A stretch of 64,000 nt of DNA, taken from a virus. The position numbers and the translations under genes were made by a program. Positions 12,875 through 44,854 of this stretch are shown here, in pieces (the first letter of the stretch is position 1; each line of letters starts with the position of its first letter). The notes beneath the pieces are model-generated. The model ran no database searches and was not told the origin of the DNA. It was given only the letters and a program-made list of their open reading frames with translations. Location: IMG/VR virus record IMGVR_UViG_3300045999_007505, one strand, 5' to 3'.

Positions 12875-13411
12875 TTACCAATCAACCATAACCATTTTAT
12901 CATTCCATATCATGATATTATCCGATCGGAAATCTAAATCTAAATCAAATTCTTTTATATTTAATTTTTCAACATCTAATTGTAATGCATTTAAAAAATT
13001 ATCTATCAATGGATCTATAGTATCTGTTTCTTGAATAAAATCAAAAATAGAAACTTCTCCACCTCGTTCTCTAGCAAACGAATAAAACTCATCCATAAAC
13101 ATATCAATTATTTTACGTATACGATCAGGCAATTCAGATGCATTTGCCATTATATACATATTTTTTCCATCAACATAATATACTGGAATAAACGTTGTAA
13201 ATTCAGTATATCGGTTTACGATAATGTTTGCAACTTTATATTCATCTTGTTCTTGCGTAATTTTAAAAGTTTTATCTTCGCCATCAATTTCATAAACGCG
13301 ACCATTATCGCCAGCACCAATTAATCGAAATTGTTTGTTTTGTATCTTATCTAAACAACGTTGAATATCAGATTCAGATAATTCTTTAAGTAAATTTTTT
13401 AAACGTATCAT
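12875..13411 (-). CDS. Minimal protein-kinase-like fold protein with N-terminal leader
   Basis: IGAGDNGRVY Gly loop, FKI Lys, DEY alphaC Glu, DFRSDN catalytic loop, terminal VDW (DFG-equivalent); begins MIRLKNLLKE. Confidence 0.7.
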   Translation of the reverse strand: MIRLKNLLKELSESDIQRCLDKIQNKQFRLIGAGDNGRVYEIDGEDKTFKITQEQDEYKVANIIVNRYTEFTTFIPVYYVDGKNMYIMANASELPDRIRKIIDMFMDEFYSFARERGGEVSIFDFIQETDTIDPLIDNFLNALQLDVEKLNIKEFDLDLDFRSDNIMIWNDKMVMVDW

Positions 13412-15099
13412 TTTGCAAATCCTGGATTAGAAAATAAAATATTTCGATCTAAATCTAAACGTATTAAAAAATTTAAATCTACATCATCTCGTTTTTTTAT
13501 TGGTTGTGCTAATTTTCCAATAGCTAATAATTGACCATTGGCATTATATAATCCAATTGTAGTAATATAAGGTGTAAAATTGCTACCCGTTACAAAACTT
13601 TGATATGTATAATTATCATCGTTAGTTAATGTAACATTTGTAGACAAATTAAATTCACCTGCATCTATTCTAACTAATGCACTTAGTTCGTGAATTGTTT
13701 TAGTACTTTTGTATGATGCAGTAAATGGCGTATTTAATAAATTTTGAAAACGATAATCAGGACTAGAAAATACAACTAAACCTTGAGCAGGCATAACGGT
13801 ACCAACATTTCTAGTTTGTAACATAGTACCGCCTTCCGTTCTATCAGCTAAATAACCAATTTCTGTACCTGTTAATGCTTTATTAAAAATTCGTATTTCA
13901 TCTAGTTTTCCGATGTAATTAGAATCGTGCAACAAATTCTTTATATCGGTAGGATTCCCTGCATTAAATATTTGGCTTCCTGAAATTGAAAATCCTCCTA
14001 TCTTTAACGGATCATTATTATCAATTCGAATCGATGCAGATAACGGATTATTTATCGGTTGCAATAATGTACTCGATTGTGATGCTACTAATGTTCCGTT
14101 AGTATAAAGTTGAATAGCACTACCAGATTTTTGAAAAAGTATATGAGTCCAATTGTTAGAAATAGATGCAGTAACACGTAAAGTTGGGTAGCCCAATTGT
14201 AAGTTTACACCTGGAATGTCGGGGTAAATAACGTCACTATTTCCGCCAACTGTACACACAATACTTGGTCCACTTCCTACAGCAACAATCTCAAATGGCC
14301 ATTGTTTTTGATGTATAGATGTTCGTTTACTAAGTAAAATTTGCGGTTTAAAGACATTAGTATTTGAAGCACTAACAAAAAATGATATTGCATAATCATG
14401 ATCTCGATCATACGATCCATCTAATATACGATCAATTGACCCCGATCCGTTAAAATTTGCAGCATACCCAATACTTCGTTGTTGTCCCGTAGTAGTAGGA
14501 ATTCCTGAAACATATGTAACTCCCGATGTATTATACGGAGTACGCGATATATCAAAATATTCATTGAAACCTTCATAAAATACAGAACCTGATATGATTG
14601 CTGCTGTATTAAAACTCGTATCATAAATATTTTCATATGAATCTGAAGCAAATGATCCAGATACCGAAGAAGTAAACGTAAATGATGTAGATTTTATTCG
14701 TTCGCCAATTTTAACTTGAGGAATTGATAAAACTGACGCTGATTGAAATAATGCTTTTTTTGTTTTTGTTATATTGGGCGGACCATATGTAATAAACGGT
14801 TCATTTTTATATCGATAAAATAAATGATTAAGTGAATAATAAATAACTGTTTGCAAACTTCCGTCAATATTAGCAGCATCATTATATGTTAATTCAGTAT
14901 CTAGTATTGGCAACGTGTCTGTATAAATTGCCGTTAATGGTAATGCACTAGAAGTAACACTTCCCGATGTAATAGTCCAATTTTTATATACCTGAAATGA
15001 ATTCATCGATATATCCGTAGGATCAACTTTTTTTAAAGTTGTCGGATATAATCCATCATACGTAAAAAAATTATCTATACCTATTCTTGTTTGTTCCAT
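13408..15099 (-). CDS. Structural protein with LamG/concanavalin-like domain
   Basis: WTHI...LYTNG...IGG...GKLDEIRIFNKAL pattern; C-terminal ITTIGLYN...LLAIGKLAQP shared with the neighbouring gene. Confidence 0.75.
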   Translation of the reverse strand: MEQTRIGIDNFFTYDGLYPTTLKKVDPTDISMNSFQVYKNWTITSGSVTSSALPLTAIYTDTLPILDTELTYNDAANIDGSLQTVIYYSLNHLFYRYKNEPFITYGPPNITKTKKALFQSASVLSIPQVKIGERIKSTSFTFTSSVSGSFASDSYENIYDTSFNTAAIISGSVFYEGFNEYFDISRTPYNTSGVTYVSGIPTTTGQQRSIGYAANFNGSGSIDRILDGSYDRDHDYAISFFVSASNTNVFKPQILLSKRTSIHQKQWPFEIVAVGSGPSIVCTVGGNSDVIYPDIPGVNLQLGYPTLRVTASISNNWTHILFQKSGSAIQLYTNGTLVASQSSTLLQPINNPLSASIRIDNNDPLKIGGFSISGSQIFNAGNPTDIKNLLHDSNYIGKLDEIRIFNKALTGTEIGYLADRTEGGTMLQTRNVGTVMPAQGLVVFSSPDYRFQNLLNTPFTASYKSTKTIHELSALVRIDAGEFNLSTNVTLTNDDNYTYQSFVTGSNFTPYITTIGLYNANGQLLAIGKLAQPIKKRDDVDLNFLIRLDLDRNILFSNPGFAK

Positions 15100-15157
15100 A
15101 CAGTAAAAACCCTGCTACATTTAATATAAATATAACAGGGCTTAAATCAGTGTTGAT

Positions 15158-16345
15158 TTAGAAATCTAATTTAACTCGTATAAGAGCTTCTCTCTGAAAT
15201 GATTTTAATAATGGTTTAGAAAGTTTTGCTACTGCTAACAATTCTTGATTATCATTATAAAGACCAATTGTAGTAACATATGTTTTAGGATCGCCAATAA
15301 ATGTAGTTTGTGATAATTGTCCATTGGACCCACTAGTAAACGATGGATTATTTGAAAAATTATATTCACCGTTTTTAATTCTTACGAAATAATTTGTACT
15401 AGTTACATTTTCTGAATTTCGTGCTAAGAATCCATATTCATCTCCCGTGCTAGGATTAGTTAATACAGAACTTCCTGATATTGAATGAAACAATGCAAAA
15501 TGATTATTTCCTTCCGAACTTGAACCCGTATTTGTTTGGAAATTCAATTGTTGATCTAACATCTTTCCGTCTAATATCAATGTACCAAATGCTGGATATG
15601 CTAATCCGTAATATACTGGCGCCGATGGATTGTAAACACCATCATTGATAGAACCTGATACGATATTATAAACTTGTCCAGAATCTCCAACCGTTGGATT
15701 TGAAATTGATGAATCATCAATTAATGTGATTACTCTAGACCCCGAAACATTTACACTACCCGTTGCATTAGTAGGTCTAGAACCAGAAATTGTACGTAAT
15801 GGAATTTCAAAATTTCCAGCATCTAATCGTTCTCGTAAACGATTACGTTTAAAGTTAATAACATAGATATAATCAGTACTTCCAGAGCCAGCTGTTGTAA
15901 ATCTAGAATCTGTAGGATTAAGTAATAATTGTCGGTATTGCGAATAAATTGCTTTTGATGGAGAATCTTCTAACTGTCCTTGAGAATCTGATCCACTACC
16001 TAAAGCATGTCCGAATGCTAAAGAAAATTGTGTTGCTGCGCCATCTGCGCTAGGCGTTTCTTGATAAACATCAACATAATATCTACGTTGTGCTGTAGTT
16101 TCTGCAGATGATGTAAAAAACGTAGTCAGACTAGCAATATTATCACTCCATAATCCAGCTGTAACAGTTTCGGTTTGATTTCCAACGACATCATTTAATA
16201 CATCAAATCTAGTAAATGTTCTACCTGTAATATTTTGTGCTGCTTGATTTAATGCTCCAAGTAATGCATTATTTCCCAAATTTGGAAGTTCGGGAGTTTG
16301 TCCTATTCTTGGTTGTGTTTTTAATCGTTTAATTAATTCTTTCAT
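15158..16345 (-). CDS. Virion structural protein
   Basis: C-terminal VTTIGLYNDNQELLAVAKLSKP, paralogous to 13408-15099; lies in the tail block. Confidence 0.7.
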   Translation of the reverse strand: MKELIKRLKTQPRIGQTPELPNLGNNALLGALNQAAQNITGRTFTRFDVLNDVVGNQTETVTAGLWSDNIASLTTFFTSSAETTAQRRYYVDVYQETPSADGAATQFSLAFGHALGSGSDSQGQLEDSPSKAIYSQYRQLLLNPTDSRFTTAGSGSTDYIYVINFKRNRLRERLDAGNFEIPLRTISGSRPTNATGSVNVSGSRVITLIDDSSISNPTVGDSGQVYNIVSGSINDGVYNPSAPVYYGLAYPAFGTLILDGKMLDQQLNFQTNTGSSSEGNNHFALFHSISGSSVLTNPSTGDEYGFLARNSENVTSTNYFVRIKNGEYNFSNNPSFTSGSNGQLSQTTFIGDPKTYVTTIGLYNDNQELLAVAKLSKPLLKSFQREALIRVKLDF

Positions 16346-16367
16346 ATTAATATTTTCCTTTTATGCG

Positions 16368-17012
16368 TTAGTTAACTACTTTTTTAACGGTTAACTGAAT
16401 AGTAACGCTGCCTCCTGTTTCATTACCAATAATAGTAATAGTTGCAGTTTTATCAGTAACAAATACTGATTTTGCAACTACTCTAAATTGGAATCCTACT
16501 GCAGACACACTAGTTGCATCTGAATTATCACCAATAAATCCAGGAGCGGTAGGAGCTGCTGCTGCATTAGCCAATGGTTGAGATACTTGTAAATCTGCAA
16601 TTGAATTGTCTGATAATATTGCTGTATATCCCAATGTACTATTGCCACTAATAATATTAGCAGTATTAGGTGCAATAACTGAAGATGCGCCTGGTGTTTG
16701 TAATATTATCGTAGTATTTCCTACATTAATTTTAGGTAAATATACAGTATTTTTAGGCAATGATATCAATCGATATTTCAATGCCTGCGTTTCATCTGGA
16801 ATAGCTTCTGTAATTGGCATATTTTCAATAATAGTGCCATAATATGATGTACCAAGTGGATGATCTGGATTCCATAATGAATAATCAACTTCATCATCTC
16901 CAACTGCAAATTGTGTAATGTTAAATGCATTTCCGCCTTGAGCTAAAAGTTCACGGCCTTTTAAAGTTAAAATTGCATCAACTGTAATTGTAGAATTATC
17001 TAAATATCCCAT
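16368..17012 (-). CDS. Virion structural protein
   Basis: MGYLDN...LTLKGRELLA...ITQFAVGDDEVDY, resembling tail-collar/baseplate N-termini; upstream late motif. Confidence 0.65.
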   Translation of the reverse strand: MGYLDNSTITVDAILTLKGRELLAQGGNAFNITQFAVGDDEVDYSLWNPDHPLGTSYYGTIIENMPITEAIPDETQALKYRLISLPKNTVYLPKINVGNTTIILQTPGASSVIAPNTANIISGNSTLGYTAILSDNSIADLQVSQPLANAAAAPTAPGFIGDNSDATSVSAVGFQFRVVAKSVFVTDKTATITIIGNETGGSVTIQLTVKKVVN

Positions 17013-17056
17013 AATATTTTTACCTTTATTATAAATATTACATATTAAAAAAATGG

Positions 17057-20000
17057 TTAATTTGTATTGCTACTTTTTCCCGTAGACTTTTTACCTGGAT
17101 TTTTTTTGTTTGTTATGACTAAATTACCTTCTTGTCCTAGTTGTTGATATACCAATTGATTTGGATTTGATAAACTCCATTGTACAACCGGACCACCGTC
17201 TACCGATTCGGTTGATGGGGCATTAAATCCTGGACCAGTAATTTTACATCCAGCATATCGATGATTTTCAATTCCACGTGGCAAGTAGTCTTGTACTTGT
17301 GCAAAACTACCGGTAAATACTAAAGGAGACGTAATTGCATAACTGCCAGTACCATACGATCCAGTACCATAATATGCTATAGGTCCGGAACTTGTTATAG
17401 CTGATACTGTACCAGATATGAATCTATATTCTGATGTTACGCTCGATGTAATTGCTGGAAACGAAACTTCACTACGCCAATATGGAGTAGAACTAGTATA
17501 ATATGTGCTACCAGAATATGTTAAATATTGATAACTATATGTCGTACCATTATATTTTTGAGCAATTGATGCCGTTAAATATCCTTGTAGTTGATCATCA
17601 TCAGTTCCAGATAATGTCATTATTTTACCATCAATCGATCCCGTATATTGAACATAATATGCAGACGCGGTTGGCAACGTACTAACCAATTGTGCATTAT
17701 ATGTATCATTTGTTTTTTGTAGGATTGGTAATATCGTATCTTTATTTCGTTCTAATATATTCGGTTGTACTAAAACACCTGTAATTTTTTCGACACGTGC
17801 CGGTAGTAATTGTTCTAATTGTTTAAAGAATGATAAATCAAACAACGTAAACATTGAAATATACGAATTAAAATCATTTTTATCAGTGTATTTTTTCCAA
17901 TATTTTTGAGACTCAACAATTAATTCAGGATATCCATATGGATTTGTATTACCTGGATCTCCGATATAATCATCTAAATTAGTAAATCCTAATTGTGCAA
18001 TGATATCTTCATCAATCATTGTTTGTGGAGAAAAGTATACTCCTATTTTTTTACTGTCTAATGGAGCTTTATCAAATTGACTTCGTTCTGCTCTACTTGT
18101 AGGACTCAAAGTTCCAACTAAATCATTATTTTCTAATCGTATTTTGTTATCATCAAATGTACTGCCACCTAATGAAATTGCGTCATAATAATATGTTTCT
18201 TCAATTGAATCATACGGCGTTGCTAATGACCAACCAGAAAACGATGCAGATATGTTTGACGGCTTTGGTTCAACCCCAGTTAAACTACCCGTTAAATTAT
18301 GATTTATATTTTGTGTTAATGGCAATCTAAAAACTAATTCTGCATATGAATCAATATTTCCATTGTATGCAGCAGGAGCTTTAACATGATTATTAAATGC
18401 TTCATCATTTAAACTAGATGACCACAATCTAAGTTCTTGTAATTGTCCAACTAATCTATTAGCACCGGTCGATGTCCCACCTAATGTTAATGTGCCAGAT
18501 CCTGCAAATGAAGCTGTTGCTGATGCAGACGCTGCAGCTACAATCGATCCATATTTAGATTTCTTAGTTACAATATCTAAATTAGTTCCATTAGTTCGTA
18601 AAACTAAATTAAGCCAATTGCCATCAAACAATTCAATTTGATTTGAACTAGTTCCATTTATTTGTACAACCCCTTTATTTCCACTAGTAAAATTTAAAGT
18701 TACTGTATTTGAACCTATTGTAAATAAATTCATAGTACTAGGTATCGTAGGATATTTTACAACATCAGCCGTTTTAAATCTAAGTTCTACAGCATTTATT
18801 GATTGCGAATAATTAACTGTTACAGTACCTGCAGAACTACCACTTAAATCTAATGCATAATCAAAATTTAATTTTTCATATATTGGAGCTCGTTCTAAAC
18901 GAGGACCGCCATATTCATTAATACTAATTAAAGATTGCGGAATACCATAACAAGATAACAATGCTTGAATACTTCGTTTAGTACCTTTAGATTTTAATAA
19001 CAATGGCAAGTTATTGATAATTCTACGCCATACTGTATATGTTATATCCATTGCTGGAACAGAAGGGTCGCCAACTGTATTTGATCCAGTCAATGGTGCA
19101 CCAGCTTCTGATGTTCCTAATACATATTGCCAAAGATTTTTGTCCTGATTTCCATTAGTTAAATTCCAACCAAATTGTTTTGCTACTGAATATAATAATT
19201 CATTTGGCATACCAAGTTTTGGATTTTCCTCTCGTTTATTAATACGAGACATATGATTGATATATGTATACAATATATCATAATGATGTCCTAACATATT
19301 AACAAATGTAATCATATCAATGTTATTATCATCAATTCTTTGATATGATGGAATATTTCGATATAATGAATTTATATTAAATGTATCGTATATATTTGCA
19401 TATTCATATGATGAACTATACCATGCAATAAATTGCGAACTAGTTGTCGGTGCATTAATATATGGATATGTTGAGTTTAATTTAGGCACTGGAGTTATGT
19501 AACTACCAGTTAATCTAGCAACTATTGGCGCTTCTAACGGATTTGTAAATGTTGTTAATATTGATGACGATTGATTATACAAATATTGTTCAAATCCATC
19601 AAATCCTCCAATTAAACTAGTTATTTGAGTTTGATATGAAGCAGCATCTGTTTGTGCAGCGGTACCATTAGTTAAAGCTAATGATGCACTTTGTTGAGCA
19701 TAATATTCTAGTAATTCTAATTTGTATTTAAAATTATCTAATCTATCAGTTGCTGTACTATAAAAAACAAAGTTATTAAAATCTGAATAATCAATATTCA
19801 GTTTCATTCCTGACAAACTTCCGGAGAAATATGCATCAATAATTTGTTGAGATGTTGATAATGAAGATCCTAATAAATCGGTCCATGTTTTAAAACCAGT
19901 TTCTGCAGATGTATTATATGAATAATTTGCTTGCCAATTTGGTCCTGATAAAACGTTTGTTGTAGGAAGTGCAATAGCTGGATTAATAACAACGTTGTCT

Positions 20001-20683: not shown

Positions 20684-20691
20684 ATTTTATA

Positions 20692-23105: not shown

Positions 23106-23112
23106 AATTACC

Positions 23113-32005: not shown

Positions 32006-32129
32006 ATATGTTTTATTTTATATTATGTAAAAAAAGTGAAAAATCCAAATAACATTATTTTTTTTGCGCGATATTTATTATCGTAACATTGAACATATTT
32101 ATTATAAATCATAAAGGAACATAACCAAA

Positions 32130-32702
32130 ATGAAAAATTTACTTTCAGAAAACATGCTACGGTTTGGAACCAAAAATTTATCTGAATCAGCACAAAGAGA
32201 ATTAACTCTTAAATCAATCATGGAAACCATTAATGAACATGGTTTACATAATGAAGTTAGACGACATTTAATGGAACAAGGAAAACCTGATCCTAATTAT
32301 TTAGGTTATGCAAAGAAAATTGCAGGTCAGCTAATGACTGCATTAGGTGGTGCTGATGATGAGGATGGCGTTTTAGCTGCATTAAAATCAATAAAAACAT
32401 ATGGTGGTCAACCAGTTTATGATAATTTATTACAACTAGTTAAAACATCTCCAAAAATTAAATCTCAATTTGGAAAAAATTTTAAATTAGTTTCTTCTAT
32501 GATTGCTGATGGTGGTATATCGCAAATGGATTTGGGATATGATGATGCAACTTCTTCTCCGGTAAAAAATCCTTTGCAAGGAAAAGGATTAGGTATTGAT
32601 CGGGATTATATTATCAAATTTAAGGAAATATTACAACAGTATAATCCAAATGAAGATGACTTTACTAGAGGAATGTTTCCAAGTAATTTACAAGGAAAAT
32701 AG
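32130..32702 (+). CDS. Leader-bearing protein with annexin-repeat-like segment
   Basis: Leader MKNLLSENMLRFGTKNLSE...; AKKIAGQLMTALGGADDEDGVLAAL resembles the annexin repeat; upstream ATATTTAT. Confidence 0.7.
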   Translation: MKNLLSENMLRFGTKNLSESAQRELTLKSIMETINEHGLHNEVRRHLMEQGKPDPNYLGYAKKIAGQLMTALGGADDEDGVLAALKSIKTYGGQPVYDNLLQLVKTSPKIKSQFGKNFKLVSSMIADGGISQMDLGYDDATSSPVKNPLQGKGLGIDRDYIIKFKEILQQYNPNEDDFTRGMFPSNLQGK

Positions 32703-33167: not shown

Positions 33168-33827
33168 ATGAAAAATTTACTTTCAGAAAACATGTTGCGA
33201 TTCGGAACCAAAAATTTATCTGAATTAGCACAACGAGAATTAATTCTTAAATCAGTAATGCAAACTATTAATGAGCATGGATTGCATGAAGATGTTACTC
33301 AACGATTAAATGAAACGATGTTGACAGAAGGCGTGCCAAATACAATATTAACAGGTCCTGCATCTATTACTATCCCTTCGAGAACGGTATGTATCAGCGG
33401 TAAAGATTATATTCAAGTAAGTTTTATAGTTGAAAACACTGGCGATGCAGACGCATATTTAACTCAGTTCCCATTTCTATCCACACCGGCATCTGCAGAT
33501 AAGATAGGATACGGAGTATTCACTTCAAATAATTACAATGTTACTATTGGTGGTAAACCATCGTGGGGCCAAGCTGACCAACAAAATGCACCTAAAATCC
33601 CTAAAGGAAAAAAAGCAACAATTAACATGACAATCTATACAGATTTGGCTCGGCCGGGAGATCAAGGTGCAGCTTTTCGTAAAAATCTTAAAGAATTAAC
33701 ATCTGCAACAATTGTAGTAAGATATAATGGAGCTACAGGTTTGAAAATTCCTGTAACATTTGGTGGGCTTACTTGGAGTAATTCTAATGCATGCGATATA
33801 GAAATTGCATTACCAAAAGGTTTCTAA
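33168..33827 (+). CDS. Leader-bearing protein with Ig-like domain
   Basis: True start probably 33168 (MKNLLSENMLRFG, paralogous to 32130); VSFIVENTG...IPKGKKATINM is Ig-like (DUF1573/CARDB-type). Confidence 0.7.
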   Translation: MKNLLSENMLRFGTKNLSELAQRELILKSVMQTINEHGLHEDVTQRLNETMLTEGVPNTILTGPASITIPSRTVCISGKDYIQVSFIVENTGDADAYLTQFPFLSTPASADKIGYGVFTSNNYNVTIGGKPSWGQADQQNAPKIPKGKKATINMTIYTDLARPGDQGAAFRKNLKELTSATIVVRYNGATGLKIPVTFGGLTWSNSNACDIEIALPKGF

Positions 33828-33884: not shown

Positions 33885-33885
33885 A

Positions 33886-34311: not shown

Positions 34312-34380
34312 AACTTAAATTTTTAACTGGTTAATTATATTACAATAATATGAAATATATATTTAATATCCAACCAGTTA

Positions 34381-34941: not shown

Positions 34942-34946
34942 TTATT

Positions 34947-35583: not shown

Positions 35584-35595
35584 GATGCAATTTTA

Positions 35596-35988: not shown

Positions 35989-35993
35989 ATAAT

Positions 35994-36284: not shown

Positions 36285-36287
36285 CGA

Positions 36288-36563: not shown

Positions 36564-36772
36564 TATTCGATAATTTTAATGATTTTACTTGCTGAAACCG
36601 ATTTAACTTCGAAATCAAATGTATAACCTTTGAAATCTTCAACTACTTTAGCTTCTGCTTCGGTAACTGAAAGTGCTTCTACAAGATACGTTTCGGTCGT
36701 TTTCTTTTCTTTCGGACCTTTCGGTGTATCAACCGTGTCAATTAATTGAACTTTTGCTGTGTAATACGACAT
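36563..36772 (-). CDS. DUF4494-like small protein
   Basis: KKTTETYLVEALSVTEAEAKV matches the Bacteroidota DUF4494 pattern. Confidence 0.75.
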   Translation of the reverse strand: MSYYTAKVQLIDTVDTPKGPKEKKTTETYLVEALSVTEAEAKVVEDFKGYTFDFEVKSVSASKIIKIIE

Positions 36773-36836
36773 TTTTTATTTTTTAAAAATTTATAACTTA
36801 TTATTAATATAATAAAATAGATTGAAATATCCAAAT

Positions 36837-37673: not shown

Positions 37674-37858
37674 TCGCCTTTAGATTCTGCTAATTGAGTT
37701 GAACGATATTTACTTGCTAATTTTTTAATTTCATTGATTGATTTTCTAGCTCTTACGCCAGCAGCTTTAACGCCCTTGTCCGCAAACCGTTCGTGATTTT
37801 CTTTGAATGCCAACCAATGTTGTTCAATTTGATCAAATATTTCTTGTGATGTTGTCAT
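37670..37858 (-). CDS. Histone H1-like (Hc1-type) nucleoid protein
   Basis: KGVKAAGVRARKS...IKKLA...R matches the Hc1-like family common in Bacteroidota. Confidence 0.75.
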   Translation of the reverse strand: MTTSQEIFDQIEQHWLAFKENHERFADKGVKAAGVRARKSINEIKKLASKYRSTQLAESKGE

Positions 37859-37888
37859 GTTAACCTTTTATTTATTATAAATATCAAT

Positions 37889-38098
37889 TCAAACAAAACG
37901 ATCCATAAATGTATGTATGTTTTCATTTTGTATTTTTAATTTTCCATAATCAGATAGTTCAATAATCACATCTTCGTTTTCTTGCCATACCTGCATTATA
38001 TGATTGCGATTAACGAATCGTAATTCTGGCTGTGCTTTTTCATGTTTTCCTTGTAATTCAATTACATGTAGAGCTAAGAATTCCGTTCGTTTTTCCAT
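37889..38098 (-). CDS. Hypothetical protein
   Basis: Intact short ORF. Confidence 0.55.
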   Translation of the reverse strand: MEKRTEFLALHVIELQGKHEKAQPELRFVNRNHIMQVWQENEDVIIELSDYGKLKIQNENIHTFMDRFV

Positions 38099-38674
38099 CT
38101 AGTCACCTGTCCAACCAAAATTAAATGGATCGCTACTTGGTTTAGTTTCTCCACTGCCCATTTTTCCGGTATATGCAGTAATAGGAACAGCCATTCGTTG
38201 TGTTTCAATATTCAAATCCATCATCTTAGCAGAATTATCTCGAGCGTATTGCATTAATGCCATCTTCATGGATTCAGCATCTGTAGATGTTGAACCAATT
38301 TTCTTTGCAATAAAGTCTTGTAGTTGTTTGGTATTTTTAAATCGATTTTTATCAAATATAATTTCTAAAATACCACGAGCATATGTCGATGCACTTTTAT
38401 CTACGTCTTTAGCATAATCTGCAGTATATCGAGAAATATCAATTCGATTTGTAATAGCATCAGGAATTTGCATCCAATCTGTTTCTGCATATTCATCAGC
38501 AAAATCCGGACCCATATCATCATCTACGGTAGATAATAGTTCTTCGCGTTGCGTTACAGTTAAACGTTTCCAAATATCAGCTTCATTGTATTCTCGAAGA
38601 ATACGACGAGCGCGCGTTATTTCTTCTTTAAGAATACGCATATGGGTTGGGTTTAAATAATCAAAAATTTTCAT
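38099..38674 (-). CDS. Hypothetical late protein
   Basis: RILKEE...RILREY motifs; coupled to the upstream gene. Confidence 0.65.
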   Translation of the reverse strand: MKIFDYLNPTHMRILKEEITRARRILREYNEADIWKRLTVTQREELLSTVDDDMGPDFADEYAETDWMQIPDAITNRIDISRYTADYAKDVDKSASTYARGILEIIFDKNRFKNTKQLQDFIAKKIGSTSTDAESMKMALMQYARDNSAKMMDLNIETQRMAVPITAYTGKMGSGETKPSSDPFNFGWTGD

Positions 38675-39045
38675 GATAGATTTTCCAATTTATATATTGT
38701 TGTGTAAATTAAATCTTTAAATGTATCCAATTGATTGATAATGTTTGTATCTTCTTTTGGAATTTTTGCATATGCTCGTTCTACAAACGTTGATATGGCT
38801 TTAAAATATTTAATAGCAGAATCTGTAGTATATTCATCAAATCGTTCAGCTGGCTCATAACCTTTAACGATTCCATATTTTCCTTGATATGCTTCAACTA
38901 ATGCATCAACCATATCAGGAATTGCATCATAATATGCATTTAATGCTATATGTGCAGCATATGATCCAACACCAGTTGTTTGCCAATGAAATATGTGTGC
39001 TTGATCTCGAGATGCCATTAATGTAGAAATTAATTTTTCAAACAT
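38671..39045 (-). CDS. Ferritin/Dps-like four-helix protein (DUF5856-like)
   Basis: HIFHWQT...SYAAHIAL..YYD...D.LVE.YQGKYG...YKL. Confidence 0.8.
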   Translation of the reverse strand: MFEKLISTLMASRDQAHIFHWQTTGVGSYAAHIALNAYYDAIPDMVDALVEAYQGKYGIVKGYEPAERFDEYTTDSAIKYFKAISTFVERAYAKIPKEDTNIINQLDTFKDLIYTTIYKLENLS

Positions 39046-39064
39046 TTTTTCCTTTTTTATATAA

Positions 39065-40909
39065 TTATATTTTTTTTACTCCAACATGTATATGATTTTC
39101 ATGATCACCCTCGGGCGTACGCCAACCAAATTGATAACGATATCCATTTTTATTAATATTTATCCATTTTCCTGGTTTATATTCTGGATGTCCCATCCAA
39201 TCCATCAAATGTGCAAATAATTCGTCGCCTCGTTTATAATTTTCTTCATTTGGCGTACCAGTAGCTAAATCAACTGCATACGCATCTTCATTACCTTCCC
39301 AATGATCCGATGTATTTCCTGAATTTGTTTTTACTTTGCTTCGTTTTTGCGAAGATATAATATTTTTACCCATGAATTCTTTTGCAACTTTAGCAACTTC
39401 TAATGCTCGTCCCATCGAACCGCCCCAATCGCCATCAGTTCCACCAGTAACAACTTTTCCAGAATCAACATCGCCAATTGGAAATCCATATGTTTGTGCA
39501 GCATACGCTCCGCCGGCTGCTATAGCACCCATAACGCCAGTAACGCCACCTTTTAAAGACTTTACAGCTTTGCCCCATAATGACGTATTTTCTGTATCAT
39601 CGCTAGATTTTTCACCTTCGATATTATTAGGATCATATGAATTAGCATATTGTTCAGCGTAATCCATTCTTTTTTTACTTATGACTGATGGACGTTCAAA
39701 TTTTCTAGCAAATTGTTCTGCTGCATCTCTCGGATCCGTTGTAGATTTTAAAAATGATACTAATGTTTTAAATCTAGAAGTTAATTCATCCCATAAATAT
39801 TCCAATTGCATATCAATATCATTCACAGGTTTACCAACGGATTTTGCATGAGCAAATAATGCAGTTTTATTAGTTGCATGCCATTGCACTAAACCATATG
39901 AAGTTCCTTTATCTCCCTCTGCACCTGGATTAAAATTTGATTCAACCCGCATATTACCAACGATTCCGGCTGCACCCGCTACGGTTAAACCATTATCAAT
40001 AAAAAATTTCATGATATTTTGCCACTTACCTGGTTCTGCCTTCGGAAGATCGGATTCATCATCCGATGTTGATATTGTTGATTTCTTTTGTTTAATAATA
40101 TTCAATGCAGATAATGTTTTTGATGTAATTGTACCTGTAGCTATTAAATTAAATTTTTTCTGAAAACGCTTTAATGCTTGTTTTGTAGTACTACCTACAG
40201 TACCTGATTCAATTTCTTCTGGATTAATATGATATCCCAAATCCTCCAATTGTTTTTGTACGTTTACAATTGATGAATTTGTTTTATTTTTTATATCATC
40301 ATCTGTATCTAAAAGTTTTTCTATGTCTTGACGTTTAACATCAAATTCTTTTAATATGTATTGGAGTAAAATTTTTGCAGCTTTTGAATGACCTTGTGAA
40401 CTTAAATTAATTCCATTTTTCGCAAAATATATATCTGAGTTCATGATGCGGTCGATATCAAGTACAAAATCGGCGCTCGACTGCCGAACCCACGAATTGA
40501 TGTCATCATACATTGATTGTCTAGATTCTAACTTATCATCTTTCAACTTAGTAAATTTAAGAGTAGGTAGCGTATTTAATACAATAGGTACATTTACTTG
40601 ATTGGCTTGTTGAATTGCGATTTCTAAATTTTCAATTGTTGTGTATGAAGATACTTCTTCATGTCCATTACAATATAAAACTACTAAATTAAATGTATCA
40701 TTAACATTATATTCTAATGAATCTAATAATCGTTCTGAATTTGCATTTGTTTCAAACACCTCATCTTCAGCAACAATAATTCCAGACTTAGCTAGTTTTT
40801 TATTAAAAGCCCATGGCTCAGAAAGATCTTCATCTCCAACAAATAAAACATTGATTGTTTTATCGGTAGGCGAATCATTATCTTCTAACAACAATTTTAA
40901 ACGAATCAT
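39065..40909 (-). CDS. Multidomain peptidoglycan hydrolase (SGNH-like, PG-binding, phage tail lysozyme, M15-like peptidase)
   Basis: Start MIRLKLLLE at 40909 (ATGA overlap); VQKQLEDLGY...TKQALKRFQ PG-binding; GIVGNMRVES...YGLVQW...FERP lysozyme; SDH...AVD...HIHV LAS-type peptidase. Confidence 0.8.
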   Translation of the reverse strand: MIRLKLLLEDNDSPTDKTINVLFVGDEDLSEPWAFNKKLAKSGIIVAEDEVFETNANSERLLDSLEYNVNDTFNLVVLYCNGHEEVSSYTTIENLEIAIQQANQVNVPIVLNTLPTLKFTKLKDDKLESRQSMYDDINSWVRQSSADFVLDIDRIMNSDIYFAKNGINLSSQGHSKAAKILLQYILKEFDVKRQDIEKLLDTDDDIKNKTNSSIVNVQKQLEDLGYHINPEEIESGTVGSTTKQALKRFQKKFNLIATGTITSKTLSALNIIKQKKSTISTSDDESDLPKAEPGKWQNIMKFFIDNGLTVAGAAGIVGNMRVESNFNPGAEGDKGTSYGLVQWHATNKTALFAHAKSVGKPVNDIDMQLEYLWDELTSRFKTLVSFLKSTTDPRDAAEQFARKFERPSVISKKRMDYAEQYANSYDPNNIEGEKSSDDTENTSLWGKAVKSLKGGVTGVMGAIAAGGAYAAQTYGFPIGDVDSGKVVTGGTDGDWGGSMGRALEVAKVAKEFMGKNIISSQKRSKVKTNSGNTSDHWEGNEDAYAVDLATGTPNEENYKRGDELFAHLMDWMGHPEYKPGKWININKNGYRYQFGWRTPEGDHENHIHVGVKKI

Positions 40910-41052
40910 TTTCCTTGTCCACAATACGATTTAACGTAATTTTTACTTGTTTTGCTAGAACTATTTTTGCTTTTTGCATGAACACCAGGCCGTTTAACAC
41001 GAGGTTTACGTACATGCATGCTCGTAGCACTAATTTTTGCCTTTGCTGCCAT
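40906..41052 (-). CDS. Small basic protein (48 aa)
   Basis: Manual translation MAAKAKISATSMHVRKPRVKRPGVHAKSKNSSSKTSKNYVKSYCGQGK; stop overlaps the next start. Confidence 0.65.
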   Translation of the reverse strand: MAAKAKISATSMHVRKPRVKRPGVHAKSKNSSSKTSKNYVKSYCGQGK

Positions 41053-41174
41053 TGCATACTCCTATTATCATTTCATAAACCGAATATAACCCAGCAACAA
41101 CTATTGCAATGCTACCTTGTATAAAAGCAAATAACCTATTCATATTAATAAATATTGCTAATACGTTTTTACAG

Positions 41175-41203
41175 TAAAAAAGTGCGCCATAAGACGCACT
41201 CTT
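41175..41203 (-). terminator. Intrinsic terminator
   Basis: aaaaa-agtgcg-ccataaga-cgcact hairpin giving a U run on the minus strand. Confidence 0.65.
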
Positions 41204-41252
41204 CAACATTTGCCTCGAAATGTTTCGCCTAAGGTAGCAGGCATCGTTAATA

Positions 41253-42833
41253 TTATTGTTTGGTAAATATGATTCGCAACATATTCCATTTAATAGAAAT
41301 GTTTTGATTTTTTTCTAAAGCTTGTTTAATTTTATTGGTTTGCATTCTATCAAATTCAATTGTATAATTAACCATTTTAATAACCGGCAAATCTGCTTCA
41401 ATTGACAAATTAGGTTTATTAGAAATTTCATCAAACGTTAAATCAAATTTAGATCTACCAATCATTTTATTTATTGGTTCGAACGAACTACCAATTTCAT
41501 ATTCTAATTTATAAACTGCAGCTTTATTTGTTTCTTTGTTATAAACTCGTACGGTTGAATCTGATTTTTTCTTGATAACAATATTATCTAATACTGCCGA
41601 TTCATTTAGTTGATTTTTACGATTTTCTAATATCCAATCATGTCCTCGAAGATTGCCATTGACCCGATTCCAAAACGATTCAGTCATTGCATCTTTTGGA
41701 GTATCATATGCAGCATCGTATGTTTCTACACCGGTTGCATTAAATCCAACTGCATGGGTTTCATCATCGCCATATTCATTTATATCATCAGTTTCTGGTT
41801 GTATATATTGTTTAATTCTATTAGCATTTGAATTAAACCATTGATCGCAAGTAGCTCCAGGACGACAAACCCGTTCTGGTAGTACTTTATATGCATTGCT
41901 TGTTGAATCTTCTAACTCAAGATCTTGATCAAATGTTAATGATTTTGTATTAGTAGGATTAAATATAAAGTACATTTGCGCACTTGTAATATCTATAGGA
42001 AACCCTAATGTCATTATATTAGAAGCTTCATCACTCATTCCCAGGATACTATGTAAAATTAAATAATTTTCACTATCCGGATTAGCAGAATTAAATGTGT
42101 TAAATGCTTGTACATATGTTTTTAATTTTAATTGATCATCATCATTATCCTCAGGCCTGAAAAAAATAACAACGGTTGGCTTATCTGCAGAAACATTTGA
42201 AAATTCTGGCTCCGTTGTCATTAAATCCGTATCTCGTAGATCGATTACATTTGAATCATTAATTATTTCATCATCATCTTCTTGCAAGTAATGTGTAGAT
42301 TCATTTACTTTGCCTTTATCTTGTTTACGTCTTGCAAGTTCTTGTTCCAATTCTCGGATATCATCTTTAGTTCCATCAAATCGCCGTAACGTTACAATCA
42401 TATCTCGTAAAGCATCATCAGAATATTTTGCAAATCGTACTTGAAATGATGCACCTTTATTAGCATTTTCTTTTACGTCGACTCCGGGCTCATACCAGAT
42501 GCCATCGCCATCATTATCTTGCCATCTTTCTGGCTTTTTATATCCTGCAGACCCGGTGCGATCTTCACGCTTAGCACGTTTCAATTCACGTCCCTTTTCA
42601 CCCAATTGTTTTCTTAGTTTTTGTGATTTCTCAGCAGTTAAATTTTTATCCGAATAATATTGATGCTTAAGATCAGCAATTTCTTTTTCCAATTTTGCAA
42701 CTTTAGCTTTAGCATCATTGGCAGCTTCATTTCGAAGATATTCGGCTTGCACCTCAGCTAACGTAGGTAGAGGTTTTCCAGGTTTACGTTCCCAGGCATA
42801 CCCTTCCAACAAAATATCCTTAAGTTTTTTCAT
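41253..42833 (-). CDS. Leader-bearing multi-segment late protein
   Basis: MKKLKDILLEG start; DNDGDG motif; segments separated by hydrophobic-x-E sites. Confidence 0.7.
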   Translation of the reverse strand: MKKLKDILLEGYAWERKPGKPLPTLAEVQAEYLRNEAANDAKAKVAKLEKEIADLKHQYYSDKNLTAEKSQKLRKQLGEKGRELKRAKREDRTGSAGYKKPERWQDNDGDGIWYEPGVDVKENANKGASFQVRFAKYSDDALRDMIVTLRRFDGTKDDIRELEQELARRKQDKGKVNESTHYLQEDDDEIINDSNVIDLRDTDLMTTEPEFSNVSADKPTVVIFFRPEDNDDDQLKLKTYVQAFNTFNSANPDSENYLILHSILGMSDEASNIMTLGFPIDITSAQMYFIFNPTNTKSLTFDQDLELEDSTSNAYKVLPERVCRPGATCDQWFNSNANRIKQYIQPETDDINEYGDDETHAVGFNATGVETYDAAYDTPKDAMTESFWNRVNGNLRGHDWILENRKNQLNESAVLDNIVIKKKSDSTVRVYNKETNKAAVYKLEYEIGSSFEPINKMIGRSKFDLTFDEISNKPNLSIEADLPVIKMVNYTIEFDRMQTNKIKQALEKNQNISIKWNMLRIIFTKQ

Positions 42834-42924
42834 GATATATCTTTTTTAAATAAATATTACATTATCGAATAAACTAGTACGTTAGTACGCCCATCTCACA
42901 GTATGCGTCCTTTCAGGTCGGCAC

Positions 42925-43266
42925 TCATGATTTCTTGCGGAATGTGATGGTAGATCCAAGGCGACCCGCAATTTCAATTTCCGCATCACCCGATTTGATG
43001 GCGTCAACAAGTTTATTCAATTGATCAAGCTTCAATTCTTCACGTTGCTTGCGATTGGTTAAAACACGATATTCGCCATCTTCTTTGTATATGGCCGTTA
43101 CACCTATCGCACCCGAATAAACAATAGAATCCATTGCTACCGAATACTTGACAGCGTTCCCATCCCATGACGCTTCAATGGGCCCACCCGATTGAGTGTT
43201 GGTGGCTCGCAGTGTTACGCCGTTGATGGTAACGGCTTCCGTAAGTAGTGTGCGTAATCGTATCAT
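42925..43266 (-). CDS. Leader-bearing hypothetical protein
   Basis: True start MIRLRTLLTE at 43266 (ATGA overlap). Confidence 0.7.
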   Translation of the reverse strand: MIRLRTLLTEAVTINGVTLRATNTQSGGPIEASWDGNAVKYSVAMDSIVYSGAIGVTAIYKEDGEYRVLTNRKQREELKLDQLNKLVDAIKSGDAEIEIAGRLGSTITFRKKS

Positions 43267-43769
43267 GTGTCCCTTTTTGTTGTAGTGATATTTTTGCGAA
43301 CCAACCAAAGACCCGAAGATATGTCCAAGACCCTATATCCCGCTGCCGAAATGCGAGGCATATTAGACGCAAGCAAGGCGCGATATATACGAGACTTTTG
43401 TCGTTCTTTTGCCCCGCTGCTAGTGTCAGATCCCGTTATGTCGATTGATGCAGGTTGCCATTGTGTTGCAAAGTCTATGAGGGCTTCCATGACGGTAGAC
43501 ATTAGGCGCAGGTAATTGACTTGTCCCGCTGCCGCGCTACGGTCATGCGCCACCGTTTGGCCTTCGCCGTCGTGGGTAGGCGTCAGAATGGCAAATGCCC
43601 ATTGTTGGTGTCCTTGGTCAACCATTGCTAGTGTGATGGTAACGCCATCTGCTTGGAACACGGTCTCTCGGCTTTCCGTGTCCGTCATGCGCTTCCACGT
43701 AAATTGTGTGGCATAAGGTGACACCCCGCCTAAAGTTATTTCCGTTACAAGTTGCGTTAAACGTATCAT
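43263..43769 (-). CDS. Leader-bearing hypothetical protein
   Basis: Starts MIRLTQLVTE. Confidence 0.7.
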   Translation of the reverse strand: MIRLTQLVTEITLGGVSPYATQFTWKRMTDTESRETVFQADGVTITLAMVDQGHQQWAFAILTPTHDGEGQTVAHDRSAAAGQVNYLRLMSTVMEALIDFATQWQPASIDITGSDTSSGAKERQKSRIYRALLASNMPRISAAGYRVLDISSGLWLVRKNITTTKRDT

Positions 43770-43788
43770 GGTGAATGTAAATTATCTG

Positions 43789-44310
43789 TTAATTATTCCC
43801 ATAACCTTGTTTGCGCCGAAGATCGCCAACTAGTACGTTGCGCCAATCAGACTCATCATATTTATCGAACATCCATTGATATACAGCTTCATCACTCATG
43901 TTTTTCCCAGGACTAAACATTACACCGCCGCCGCGAGCGTCGGTAATTTTACCTGACTCTGGGTGATAACCAAAAATGTTGTATCGGCCATTAAATGCCC
44001 CGCCCAATGGATACACTGCGAACCACGTGGTTTGTACCCGCGGTTTCATAACGTTAGCGGCCGCTTTAGCATATTTTCCACTACGCCATTCTTGTGATTT
44101 TTTTCCCATGACGTCATAAAATTGCATTCCATATGGAAAGTTCGGAAATTTAATAGCGAAGTCGGCTCCTTGATAAGGTTCTTCCTCGCCGGGTTCATAA
44201 TAATGCGGATCTGGTTCGGCGGGTGGAGGGCCAGCTGGTTCGGCTGGCGGTGGAGCGGCTTCTTGCTCGGCTAAATACCGTTTCCAGAGTGTTAGATAAG
44301 TTTTTTCCAT
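43789..44310 (-). CDS. Hypothetical late protein
   Basis: MEKTYLTLWKRYLAE then a Pro-rich linker; upstream ATATTTAT. Confidence 0.65.
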   Translation of the reverse strand: MEKTYLTLWKRYLAEQEAAPPPAEPAGPPPAEPDPHYYEPGEEEPYQGADFAIKFPNFPYGMQFYDVMGKKSQEWRSGKYAKAAANVMKPRVQTTWFAVYPLGGAFNGRYNIFGYHPESGKITDARGGGVMFSPGKNMSDEAVYQWMFDKYDESDWRNVLVGDLRRKQGYGNN

Positions 44311-44395
44311 GGTATTATAATCCTTTAATGTCTAATAATAAATATCTATTAATAAATATTGGTTTCCGCAATAAATGCTGGAAACGAGATGGCCT

Positions 44396-44854
44396 TTACA
44401 TTGTGGGGTCGCCGGGAGTATCAATTCCATCCGTAGTGTATTTAGTGCCCAATAAATTATCAGAAAATTTTGATGGTAGCGTGGTAAAACGTCCTCCCGA
44501 TATGCGTTTAGTCAACCAACCTAATAACATGTTACCCGATGCCCCTAATACCGGGAATGTAATTACTACGCCACTCGTTTTTAATATGTCCGTAAAATTG
44601 CGTCGAAGCTTTTCACGTTCCGCTGCAGACATGGGTTGCCCCGTTAAATGGCGTGTTACCAATTCCCCAAACCCTTTAAAGTCTGCACGTTGTTCTGTAA
44701 ATGCAGCACGAAATGCATGCATGATAGTATTCATTTTGCCACGCAGCGTATACAAAACGTTTTCAAGCAGTATGCGATTCGCTGCGACTTGCATTGCCTT
44801 TGCGTGAGCTGCTTCACAAAGTACAAGACGGGACATGGTGGTGAGTTGTTTCAT
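44396..44854 (-). CDS. Hypothetical late protein
   Basis: Upstream ATATTTAT; LCE and LLE motifs. Confidence 0.6.
   Translation of the reverse strand: MKQLTTMSRLVLCEAAHAKAMQVAANRILLENVLYTLRGKMNTIMHAFRAAFTEQRADFKGFGELVTRHLTGQPMSAAEREKLRRNFTDILKTSGVVITFPVLGASGNMLLGWLTKRISGGRFTTLPSKFSDNLLGTKYTTDGIDTPGDPTM

What the first reader, a model, noticed from the sequence alone, without database searches (positions are those of the whole stretch)
12875..44854. Shared ~10-aa N-terminal tag on unrelated late proteins: candidate capsid-targeting and protease-release system for injected payloads
Seen: otherwise unrelated ORFs begin MIRLKNLLKE (13411, kinase-like), MIRLKLLLE (40909, PG hydrolase), MKKLKDILLE (42833), MIRLRTLLTE (43266) and MIRLTQLVTE (43769). 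Looser versions occur at 44310 (..KRYLAE), 44854 and 32130/33168 (MKNLLSE). All lie in units downstream of the ATATTTAT motif. Known: T4 internal proteins share a 10-aa capsid-targeting sequence that the gp21 prohead protease removes after L/I-x-E. Inference: this phage uses a portable tag to load an exchangeable set of enzymes into the head for delivery at infection.
Basis: partly seen in the sequence, partly recalled or inferred. Interest (0 to 1): 0.85.

Follow-up and report, generated by a model that had tools for sequence, protein, structure and literature searches.

The report
Head-loading address tag on phage proteins
An uncultured lake phage with T4-type head genes starts at least five unrelated proteins with the same ten-residue peptide; it matches phage T4's "load into the head, then clip off" signal and sits on about 90 protein families in related environmental phages, but packaging has not been shown by experiment.

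Summary
Five unrelated ORFs (starts 13411, 40909, 42833, 43266, 43769, minus strand) begin with M-I/K-R/K-L-x-x-L/I-L/V-x-E. In six-frame scans of the window and two complete relatives, this core follows a start Met in 22 of 23 cases.

The tag has the register of the T4 capsid-targeting sequence MKTYQEFIAE and of the T4 gp24 N-terminus MAKINELLRE. Positions 4, 7 and 8 are hydrophobic and position 10 is Glu.

A back-translated scan of IMG/VR found 258 matches. Of these, 216 lie at ORF starts, on 89 unrelated protein clusters. One 26-member cluster is the gene immediately downstream of the Peptidase_S77 (gp21-type) prohead protease. Nine of ten long tagged contigs encode S77.

The capsid protein of relatives carries [LI]-[LIV]-x-E where T4 gp23 is cut. 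Tagged proteins specifically avoid internal [LI]-x-E (observed/expected 0.85 against 1.27; 0 of 5000 resamples).

Best reading: a T4-type capsid-targeting propeptide removed by the head protease. Packaging, cleavage and injection are inferred, not shown.

Of the looser cases, 32130 and 33168 are supported, 44310 carries a different leader, and 44854 is not supported. This scan has noted similar leaders in many other phage genomes. I found no paper describing this tag.

The parts
12875..13411 (-). Tagged 178-aa protein, MIRLKNLLKE followed by a minimal protein-kinase-like fold. Last gene of a tail-fibre-like unit, with an ATGA overlap to the gene 13408-15099.
   Evidence: AF2 mean pLDDT 90.6, but residues 1-8 are below 50. 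Foldseek top hits are APH(2'')/choline kinase/protein kinases, E about 1e-4. A 39-member family in IMG/VR keeps the tag invariant.
39065..40909 (-). Tagged 614-aa peptidoglycan hydrolase. MIRLKLLLED, then an SGNH-like N-domain (GDE in place of GDS), then PG_binding_1 and Phage_lysozyme2.
   Evidence: Pfam. The G002 homologue starts MIRLKSLLFE. The G001 homologue has MKLKHILNE and a different N-domain.
41253..42833 (-). Tagged 526-aa protein with a composite leader: MKKLKDILLE plus GYAWERKPGKPLPTLAEVQA. The body is of unknown function.
   Evidence: The roughly 35-residue leader is conserved in G001, G002 and several IMG/VR loci in front of bodies of 118 to 263 aa that differ.
42925..43266 (-). 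Tagged 113-aa protein, MIRLRTLLTE, function unknown. ATGA overlap with the gene upstream.
   Evidence: No family hit.
43263..43769 (-). Tagged 168-aa protein, MIRLTQLVTE, of a virus-only family of unknown function.
   Evidence: Homologues with the tag occur in G001, G002 and seven IMG/VR loci. The Atlas neighbours are all viral.
43789..44310 (-). 173-aa protein with a different 15-residue leader, MEKTYLTLWKRYLAE, followed by a Pro-rich linker. Possibly a second leader class ending in L-x-E.
   Evidence: The leader is conserved in G001 (MQRTYLTLWKQYLTE) while the downstream sequence differs. There is no other evidence.
44396..44854 (-). 152-aa ORF starting MKQLTTMSRLVLCE. Not accepted as tagged.
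   Evidence: It does not fit the tag register. No homologue was found in G001, G002 or the IMG/VR loci. A plus-strand ORF overlaps it.
32130..32702 (+). 190-aa cassette with the leader MKNLLSE plus NMLRFGTKNLSE..., a shortened tag with an extension that holds a second L-x-E.
   Evidence: Relatives carry the full tag in front of the same extension (G001 61617, G002 16514 and 17364, L079).
33168..33827 (+). 219-aa cassette. It is a paralogue of 32130 in the leader only; the body is unrelated.
   Evidence: The blastp match covers the first ~65 residues of the tag-trimmed sequences, i.e. about residues 13-80 of the proteins.
11250..12191 (-). Primase whose N-terminus (V/M)KNLKLLQLLE looks like the tag. 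Judged a look-alike, not a member.
   Evidence: PHROG primase and Toprim hits. It has an 11-residue register. The helix LL.(L/F)(L/I)E.VLGK is a conserved part of the primase in immuto (MSSNILLGFIENVLGK) and in Mel-JY01, where it lies behind 10 to 11 more residues as that gene is annotated (an internal Met would make it near-terminal).
3..1067 (-). T4-type large terminase (N-terminal part; the gene runs off the window start). By synteny with G001, the portal, S77 protease, scaffold and capsid genes lie just beyond the window start.
   Evidence: Pfam Terminase_6N. 85% aa identity to G002. G001 gene order.
15126..15133 (-). Gene-sense ATATTTAT motif (late-promoter-like) heading the unit that ends with the tagged gene at 13411. 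Equivalent motifs on the minus strand have their first (highest-numbered) base at 41155, 42857, 44345, 44359 and 44866. On the plus strand they start at 32071, 32095, 33110 and 33134.
   Evidence: 25 gene-sense copies on the minus strand, mostly intergenic, against 7 on the plus strand (4 of them sense to the plus-strand cassettes). No copy lies in the small-gene block 45-59 kb, which also has no tag.

Best explanation
The ten-residue N-terminus M-I/K-R/K-L-x-x-L/I-L/V-x-E is a T4-type capsid-targeting propeptide. During head assembly it docks newly made proteins onto the scaffolding core of the prohead, mainly through the hydrophobic residues at positions 4 and 7. The phage's gp21-family (Peptidase_S77) prohead protease then cuts after Glu10, recognising hydrophobic-[LIV]-x-E. 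This frees the mature protein inside the capsid. The tag is a portable module. Related phages place it, alone or with short extensions, in front of many unrelated proteins, and they exchange the payloads at the same loci.

Shown here: the tag, its strict N-terminal position, its portability, its co-occurrence with T4-type head genes, and avoidance of the protease motif in tagged proteins.

Inferred: binding to the core, cleavage, retention in the mature head and, by analogy with T4 internal proteins and Alt, ejection into the host.
For: 1. Strictly N-terminal. 22 of 23 six-frame matches to the core follow a start Met. In IMG/VR, 244 of 258 matches precede an ORF of at least 50 aa and 216 lie within 15 codons of an upstream stop.

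2. Conservation stops at residue 10. Codon use at the free tag positions equals that of the protein bodies, so selection acts on the peptide.

3. Same register as the T4 CTS MKTYQEFIAE (PMC8442874). In T4, residues 4 and 7 direct targeting, and 8 and 10 direct processing after L/I-x-E (PMC9026906). T4 gp24 starts MAKINELLRE, gp22 MLKEQLIAE and gp21 MNEPQLLIE.

4. The lineage has T4-type head genes. The window holds a T4-type terminase. The closest complete relatives, G001 (73% mean aa identity) and G002, have S77 and Gp23. Nine of ten long tagged contigs have S77. Mel-JY01 has Portal_T4, S77 and Gp23.

5. A 26-member tagged cluster is the gene next to, and downstream of, the S77 protease gene, upstream of scaffold and capsid genes.

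6. At the position of the T4 gp23 cut (FLTE|A), relatives have LVKE|S, LISE|A, IVSE|A or LLDE|A. This is the same P4-P3-x-P1 pattern as tag residues 7 to 10.

7. Tagged bodies are depleted of [LI]-x-E: observed/expected 0.845 against a null of 1.27 (sd 0.076; 0 of 5000 resamples). For hydrophobic-[LIV]-x-E the values are 0.69 against 1.23. [LI]-x-D, [LI]-x-K, [LI]-x-Q and the reversed motif are not depleted. The result repeats in the window, G001 and G002. Predicted core proteins of G001 are enriched instead, at 1.6 to 3.0.

8. In the AF2 model of the 178-aa protein, the invariant tag is the only low-confidence part. It does not pack on the fold.

9. Cargo types recall T4 Alt and known injected proteins: an ART-PolyVal ADP-ribosyltransferase, lysozymes and a kinase-like protein.
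Against: - There are no protein data. Nothing shows that any tagged protein is in virions or is cleaved.
- The window's own protease, scaffold and capsid genes lie outside the window and could not be read (no whole genome; contig look-up closed).
- Several frequent cargos are peptidoglycan hydrolases. Their usefulness from inside a myovirus head is not obvious.
- Tagged proteins are not markedly basic, unlike T4 internal proteins.
- One long tagged contig (G004) has neither S77 nor Gp23.
- The motif-avoidance test uses crude ORF calls as controls.
- A primase carries a near-match.
Confidence: 0.7

Rival explanations
1. The tag does target proteins to the prohead core, but the tagged proteins are assembly or core components. 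They would be degraded or expelled at maturation, or would stay in the head without being delivered. There would then be no injected payload.
For: The most common non-enzyme tagged family is a prohead-module gene beside the protease. In T4, core proteins with N-terminal L/I-x-E sites are cut up and lost (PMC9026906). Most cargos have no recognisable function.
Against: Tagged bodies avoid internal protease motifs, whereas predicted core proteins are enriched in them. This fits proteins meant to survive maturation. Some cargos are enzymes with host-directed activities, such as an ADP-ribosyltransferase, a kinase-like protein and lysozymes.
Confidence: 0.15
2. The tag is a docking peptide for some other shared partner, such as a tail or baseplate site, the tube lumen, a chaperone or an export route. 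It would not be a capsid signal.
For: The tagged kinase-like gene ends a tail-fibre-like unit. Phage_lysozyme2 domains are typical of tail tape-measure proteins. The detached, invariant N-terminal peptide shows only that some partner exists.
Against: The same tag heads a head-module gene between the protease and scaffold genes in 26 loci. Its last four residues match the capsid-protein maturation site. Specific avoidance of [LI]-x-E points to exposure to the head protease. The tag is not hydrophobic enough for a Sec or SAR signal.
Confidence: 0.08
3. The shared start is a nucleic-acid feature, either a translation-initiation context or a recombination joint of gene cassettes. Alternatively it is the last trace of common ancestry. 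In either case it is not a functional peptide.
For: The codons are AT-rich, which suits translation initiation. The cassettes at 32130 and 33168 share leader DNA.
Against: Synonymous codons vary as they do in the protein bodies. Substitutions are conservative at the protein level (I/L/V, R/K). Conservation ends exactly at codon 10. The bodies fall into 89 unrelated clusters. Motif avoidance in the bodies cannot be explained at the RNA level.
Confidence: 0.04

Closest known systems
[quoted passage not shown]
   Same: The tag is N-terminal and about 10 residues long. Positions 4, 7 and 8 are hydrophobic and position 10 is Glu. It sits on otherwise unrelated proteins. The phage lineage has a gp21-family S77 protease, a gp20-type portal, a gp23-type capsid protein and a T4-type terminase. 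Head-core proteins also begin with short leaders ending in L/I-x-E.
   Different: The consensus differs (MI[RK]LKxLLxE). The phages are not Straboviridae. The nearest cultured relatives infect Microcystis and Flavobacterium at 40 to 53% identity in a baseplate protein. The cargo repertoire is far larger: about 14 tagged genes per genome and at least 89 families in a truncated IMG/VR scan. There are composite leaders (tag plus NMRRFGTKNLSE, or tag plus GYAWER..LPTL). Cargos are not notably basic. Nothing has been tested at the bench.
Ejection and inner-body proteins of giant phages phiKZ, 201phi2-1 and SPN3US, with propeptides removed by a gp21-related protease (gp175/gp245)
   Same: Many head-internal proteins are processed C-terminal to Glu by an S77-related protease (PMC9026906, PMC10052503).
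   Different: Those sites read S/A/G-x-E, and the propeptides are long and varied. They are not one short shared N-terminal tag. Here P3 is L/I/V.
Phage P1 Dar system (DarA/Hdf-dependent packaging of DarB, Ulx and others)
   Same: N-terminal regions direct anti-restriction proteins into the head for delivery with the DNA (PMC9024508).
   Different: There is no shared short consensus tag. The head lineage is not T4-type. Packaging follows a dependency hierarchy among the Dar proteins.
Cargo-loading peptides of encapsulins
   Same: Short conserved terminal peptides address unrelated cargo proteins to the interior of an HK97-fold shell (from general knowledge, not tested here).
   Different: Those peptides are usually C-terminal and are not removed by a protease. 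Encapsulins are cellular compartments, not virions.

Membership tests
T4-type capsid-targeting propeptide (CTS) system | Signal lies at the extreme N-terminus and is about 10 residues long | tested here: met
   22 of 23 six-frame matches follow a start Met. 216 of 258 IMG/VR matches lie at ORF starts. Conservation ends at residue 10.
T4-type capsid-targeting propeptide (CTS) system | Hydrophobic residues at positions 4 and 7 (the targeting determinants in IPIII) | tested here: met
   L4 and L/I7 occur in all five window tags and in relatives. The determinants are taken from PMC9026906.
T4-type capsid-targeting propeptide (CTS) system | L/I-x-E at positions 8 to 10 (the processing determinants) | tested here: met
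   L or V at position 8 and E at position 10. In 40909 the site is L-L-E at positions 7 to 9. V at P3 also occurs at the capsid-protein site in G001 and immuto.
T4-type capsid-targeting propeptide (CTS) system | The phage encodes a gp21-family (Peptidase_S77) prohead protease | tested here: inconclusive
   Met in the closest complete relatives G001 and G002, in Mel-JY01 and in 9 of 10 long tagged contigs. The window itself ends inside the T4-type terminase gene. By synteny that is about 4 kb short of where the protease gene lies in G001. No whole genome was available.
T4-type capsid-targeting propeptide (CTS) system | T4-type capsid and scaffold proteins processed at matching sites | tested here: met
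   Tested in relatives only. Gp23-family capsid proteins carry [LI]-[LIV]-x-E aligned to the T4 gp23 cut. The scaffold, protease and core proteins begin with leaders that end in such a site at residues 8 to 17.
T4-type capsid-targeting propeptide (CTS) system | The tag is shared by otherwise unrelated cargo proteins | tested here: met
   No similarity among the window bodies. 89 clusters among 236 tagged proteins (231 from IMG/VR plus the five window proteins).
T4-type capsid-targeting propeptide (CTS) system | Tagged proteins are found in proheads and virions with the tag removed, and the tag suffices to package a foreign protein | not testable with these tools
   Needs virion proteomics and fusion experiments. 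The only indirect support is avoidance of internal [LI]-x-E in the cargos.
phiKZ-like ejection-protein propeptides | Cleavage motif S/A/G-x-E and long, varied propeptides | tested here: not met
   P3 is L/V/I in the tags and at the capsid-protein site. The leader is a single fixed 10-mer.

The most novel reading that the evidence does not exclude
The 10-residue tag is a sequence-readable label for the packaged, and probably injected, protein set of a large clade of aquatic phages with T4-type heads. One motif search would then list, from metagenomes alone, hundreds of families of proteins that phages carry into cells. These include kinase-like enzymes, ADP-ribosyltransferases and cell-wall hydrolases. 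Depletion of the protease motif would give a second, independent way to recognise such cargo.
Probability: 0.5. Interest if true: 0.75.

Novelty: new member of a known kind. Interest (0 to 1): 0.6.

Why it matters
T4's capsid-targeting sequence is the textbook way for a phage to load proteins into its head and deliver them with the DNA. It is described in only a few laboratory phages. If this tag works the same way, the mechanism is widespread in uncultured freshwater and marine phages and serves a much larger, fast-changing cargo set. The tag would then allow prediction of which phage proteins act in the first seconds of infection, including anti-defence and host-takeover candidates. It would also offer a ready-made loading signal for engineering phages of Bacteroidota and cyanobacteria. 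The idea itself is not new, and this scan has noted similar leaders in many other phage genomes.

Tried and rejected
**Tools and sources that gave nothing**
- Exact 40-mers of the window are absent from IMG/VR and JGI metagenomes.
- Megablast against phage records found nothing.
- As a result, the window's own protease, scaffold and capsid genes could not be read. I used relatives instead.

**Searches with little or no yield**
- Pfam and PHROGs give nothing for most cargos.
- The Atlas gives only viral hypothetical families for the 168-aa protein.
- No paper in the searchable library contains the tag strings or describes such tags in environmental phages. No paper on Mel-JY01 and no virion proteome of immuto were found.

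**Ideas considered and dropped**
- Primase as a tagged replication protein. Rejected because the similar stretch is a conserved primase helix, and in immuto it sits at the N-terminus without the tag consensus (in Mel-JY01 its position depends on the start codon).
- 44854 as a tagged gene. Rejected.
- Paralogy of the tagged proteins. Rejected.
- An RNA-level explanation. Rejected.
- Cargos being basic like the T4 internal proteins. Not seen.
- Direct enrichment of the promoter motif upstream of tagged genes is only modest: 9 of 23 against 96 of 541 genes. Every tagged gene does, however, lie in a unit headed by the motif.
Full report
**What the window is.** The 64-kb window is low-GC phage DNA with nearly all genes on the minus strand.
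- It holds a T4-type large terminase fragment at 3-1067 (Terminase_6N).
- It holds gp6- and gp25-like baseplate genes, long fibre-like genes, a primase and an SbcCD-like fusion.
- A block of small genes lies at 45-59 kb.
- By a baseplate protein, the nearest cultured relatives are Microcystis phage Mel-JY01 (53% aa) and Flavobacterium phage immuto (40%).
- Much closer are two complete IMG/VR genomes. G001 is 159.6 kb with terminal repeats and shows 73% mean aa identity over 46 ORFs. G002 is 169 kb and shows 62%.

**The observation.**
- Five minus-strand ORFs start with MIRLKNLLKE (13411), MIRLKLLLED (40909), MKKLKDILLE (42833), MIRLRTLLTE (43266) and MIRLTQLVTE (43769).
- Beyond residue 12 they share nothing.
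- Three of the starts overlap the upstream stop codon as ATGA, which fixes the start codon.
- A position-weight scan gives these five scores of 17 to 30. The next best start scores 9.6 and is a signal peptide.
- The core x-[IK]-[RK]-L-x-x-[LI]-[LV]-x-E was searched in six frames with any first residue. It occurs 4, 10 and 9 times in the window, G001 and G002. In 22 of these 23 cases it follows an ATG at an ORF start. The motif is therefore strictly N-terminal.
- Every tagged gene lies in a unit headed by the gene-sense motif ATATTTAT. That motif also heads the structural units and is absent from the small-gene block at 45-59 kb, which has no tag.

**The looser cases.**
- 32130 and 33168 carry MKNLLSE plus NMLRFGTKNLSE. 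Relatives have the full tag in front of the same extension, for example MIKLKNILAENMRRFGTKNLSE. I read these two as a shortened tag with a second L-x-E.
- 44310 has a different 15-residue leader ending in YLAE. The leader is conserved in G001 while the body differs.
- 44854 has no support.
- The primase (12191) starts (V/M)KNLKLLQLLE. The similar stretch is a conserved primase helix. In immuto it sits at the N-terminus without the tag consensus, and in Mel-JY01 it follows 10 or 11 extra residues as the gene is annotated. I treat it as a look-alike.

**Spread of the tag.**
- Mel-JY01 has at least four tagged ORFs and immuto has one or more. None is a homologue of the window's tagged proteins.
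- G001 and G002 carry about a dozen each (G001 about 14, counting shortened variants).
- Of the 258 matches, 244 precede an ORF of at least 50 aa, and 216 lie within 15 codons of an upstream stop.
- The 231 proteins kept, together with the five window proteins, fall into 89 BLAST clusters, 64 of them singletons.
- After Glu10 the columns are random.
- Codon use at the unconstrained tag positions equals that of the protein bodies. The peptide is what is conserved, not the DNA.

**Link to the head.**
- The T4 CTS is MKTYQEFIAE (PMC8442874). Residues 4 and 7 direct targeting, residues 8 and 10 direct processing, and gp21 cuts after L/I-x-E (PMC9026906).
- Read from the T4 record, gp24 starts MAKINELLRE, gp22 MLKEQLIAE and gp21 MNEPQLLIE. 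gp23 holds FLTE before the mature AEIGG. That gp24 is cut exactly after residue 10 is from my memory.
- The tag here has the same length and the same pattern: hydrophobic at 4, 7 and 8, and Glu at 10.
- Mel-JY01 has Portal_T4, Peptidase_S77 and Gp23. G001, G002 and G003 have S77 and Gp23. Nine of ten long tagged contigs have S77.
- One 26-member tagged cluster is the gene directly downstream of the S77 gene and upstream of the scaffold and capsid genes. It is a homologue of the Mel-JY01 gene at that position.
- In G001 the head-module proteins begin with leaders that end in a hydrophobic-[LIV]-x-E site at residues 8 to 17. The protease also has one such site 7 residues from its C-terminus.
- Aligned to T4 gp23, the relatives' capsid proteins carry LVKE|S, LISE|A, IVSE|A or LLDE|A at the T4 cleavage position. 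This is the pattern of tag residues 7 to 10.

**An independent test: avoidance of the protease motif.** If tagged proteins sit in a prohead with such a protease and are meant to survive, they should avoid internal sites.

| Motif or set | Tagged bodies, observed/expected | Controls, observed/expected |
|---|---|---|
| [LI]-x-E, 88 cluster representatives | 0.845 | 1.27 (sd 0.076) |
| hydrophobic-[LIV]-x-E | 0.69 | 1.23 |
| [LI]-x-E, window | 0.88 | 1.35 |
| [LI]-x-E, G001 | 0.84 | 1.29 |
| [LI]-x-E, G002 | 0.80 | 1.21 |

- None of 5000 random sets of 88 same-strand control ORFs from the same loci reached the [LI]-x-E value of the tagged bodies.
- [LI]-x-D, [LI]-x-K, [LI]-x-Q and the reversed motif are not depleted.
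- Predicted core proteins of G001 go the other way, at 1.6 to 3.0.
- The controls are crude ORF calls, so this result is supportive, not decisive.

**The tag in a folded protein.** An AF2 model of the 178-aa protein, built from 33 homologues, has a mean pLDDT of 90.6. The invariant tag (residues 1-8) is the only part below 50. That is the behaviour of a linear motif that binds a partner. The fold matches aminoglycoside and choline kinases and protein kinases weakly but consistently (E about 1e-4, TM 0.38 to 0.46).

**Cargo.**
- In the window: the kinase-like protein, a 614-aa PG_binding_1 plus Phage_lysozyme2 hydrolase, and three proteins of unknown function.
- In relatives: Phage_lysozyme plus LysM, DUF5872 and an ART-PolyVal ADP-ribosyltransferase. 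The last recalls T4 Alt.
- Payloads are exchanged behind the same leaders. The GYAWER..LPTL leader fronts bodies of 118 to 526 aa. The hydrolase has different N-domains in the window, G001 and G002.

**Verdict.**
- The best reading is a T4-type capsid-targeting propeptide removed by the S77 prohead protease (confidence 0.7). Delivery into the host is a further inference, at about even odds.
- Rivals: targeting without delivery (0.15), docking to another partner such as the tail (0.08), and an RNA-level or ancestry artefact (0.04).
- It passes every membership feature that could be tested. The protease and capsid features were tested only in relatives. Packaging and cleavage cannot be tested here.
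- I file it as a new member of a known kind. It has a distinct consensus, a non-Straboviridae lineage and a much larger cargo set.
- Papers in the searchable library do not mention the tag.
- The scan's own notes list similar leaders in at least 54 other phage genomes, and more tags elsewhere in this genome. Those notes are leads, not evidence.

Noticed in passing
window 59994-63607 (-): Two large secreted-looking proteins. One has SprB repeat, PKD-like and CHU_C type IX secretion sorting domains; the other has an Ig_7 'CHU_C-associated' domain. Part of the first is conserved in G002. A phage-encoded type IX secretion substrate points to a Bacteroidota host and may alter the host cell surface.
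   Followed up: partly
window 40906-41209 (-): Two small overlapping ORFs lie just upstream of the tagged hydrolase. One is a very basic 48-aa peptide (41052-40906, ATGA overlap with the hydrolase start). The other is a 59-aa hydrophobic protein (41209-41030). Both are conserved in G001. Function unknown; the hydrophobic one could be holin-like.
   Followed up: partly
window 42000-50000: GC content rises to 0.39-0.43, against 0.29-0.35 in most of the window. The rise begins inside the cluster of tagged genes. This may mark recently acquired or differently evolving DNA.
   Followed up: no
window 45000-59000 (-): A block of about 35 small genes. Many are preceded by the repeated upstream sequence TTAAAAAA(T)AAGAGAG(A/T) a few bases before the ATG. 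The block has no ATATTTAT motif and no tags. It is probably the early region, with its own expression signal.
   Followed up: no
window 44854-44866; IMG/VR loci such as L076, L087, L098, L108, L110: The late-type motif often lies only 4 bases from the start codon (ATATTTATTAAT then ATG). This suggests very short or absent mRNA leaders on these genes.
   Followed up: no
window 41253-42833 (-); G001 138829; G002 97018; L050, L056, L198, L205, L225: A longer conserved leader: the tag plus G(Y/F)AWER..G..LPTL...., about 35 residues, in front of bodies that differ in length and sequence. It may hold a second docking element.
   Followed up: partly
window 39065-40909 (-): The N-domain of the tagged hydrolase resembles an SGNH esterase block (VLFVGD...). 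It reads GDE in the window and GDQ in G002, while some IMG/VR homologues keep GDS. The esterase may be inactive in this phage.
   Followed up: no
window 8113-11259 (-): A single 1048-aa protein joins a calcineurin-like phosphoesterase to an SMC_N/RecF-type ATPase. It looks like a fused SbcCD- or gp46/47-type nuclease.
   Followed up: no
G001 83833-90173 (loci L284, L266): The head module of the closest relative has a ribosomal protein bS21 gene between the protease-side core genes and the scaffold, as in Mel-JY01. Core proteins are two- to three-fold enriched in [LI]-x-E.
   Followed up: partly
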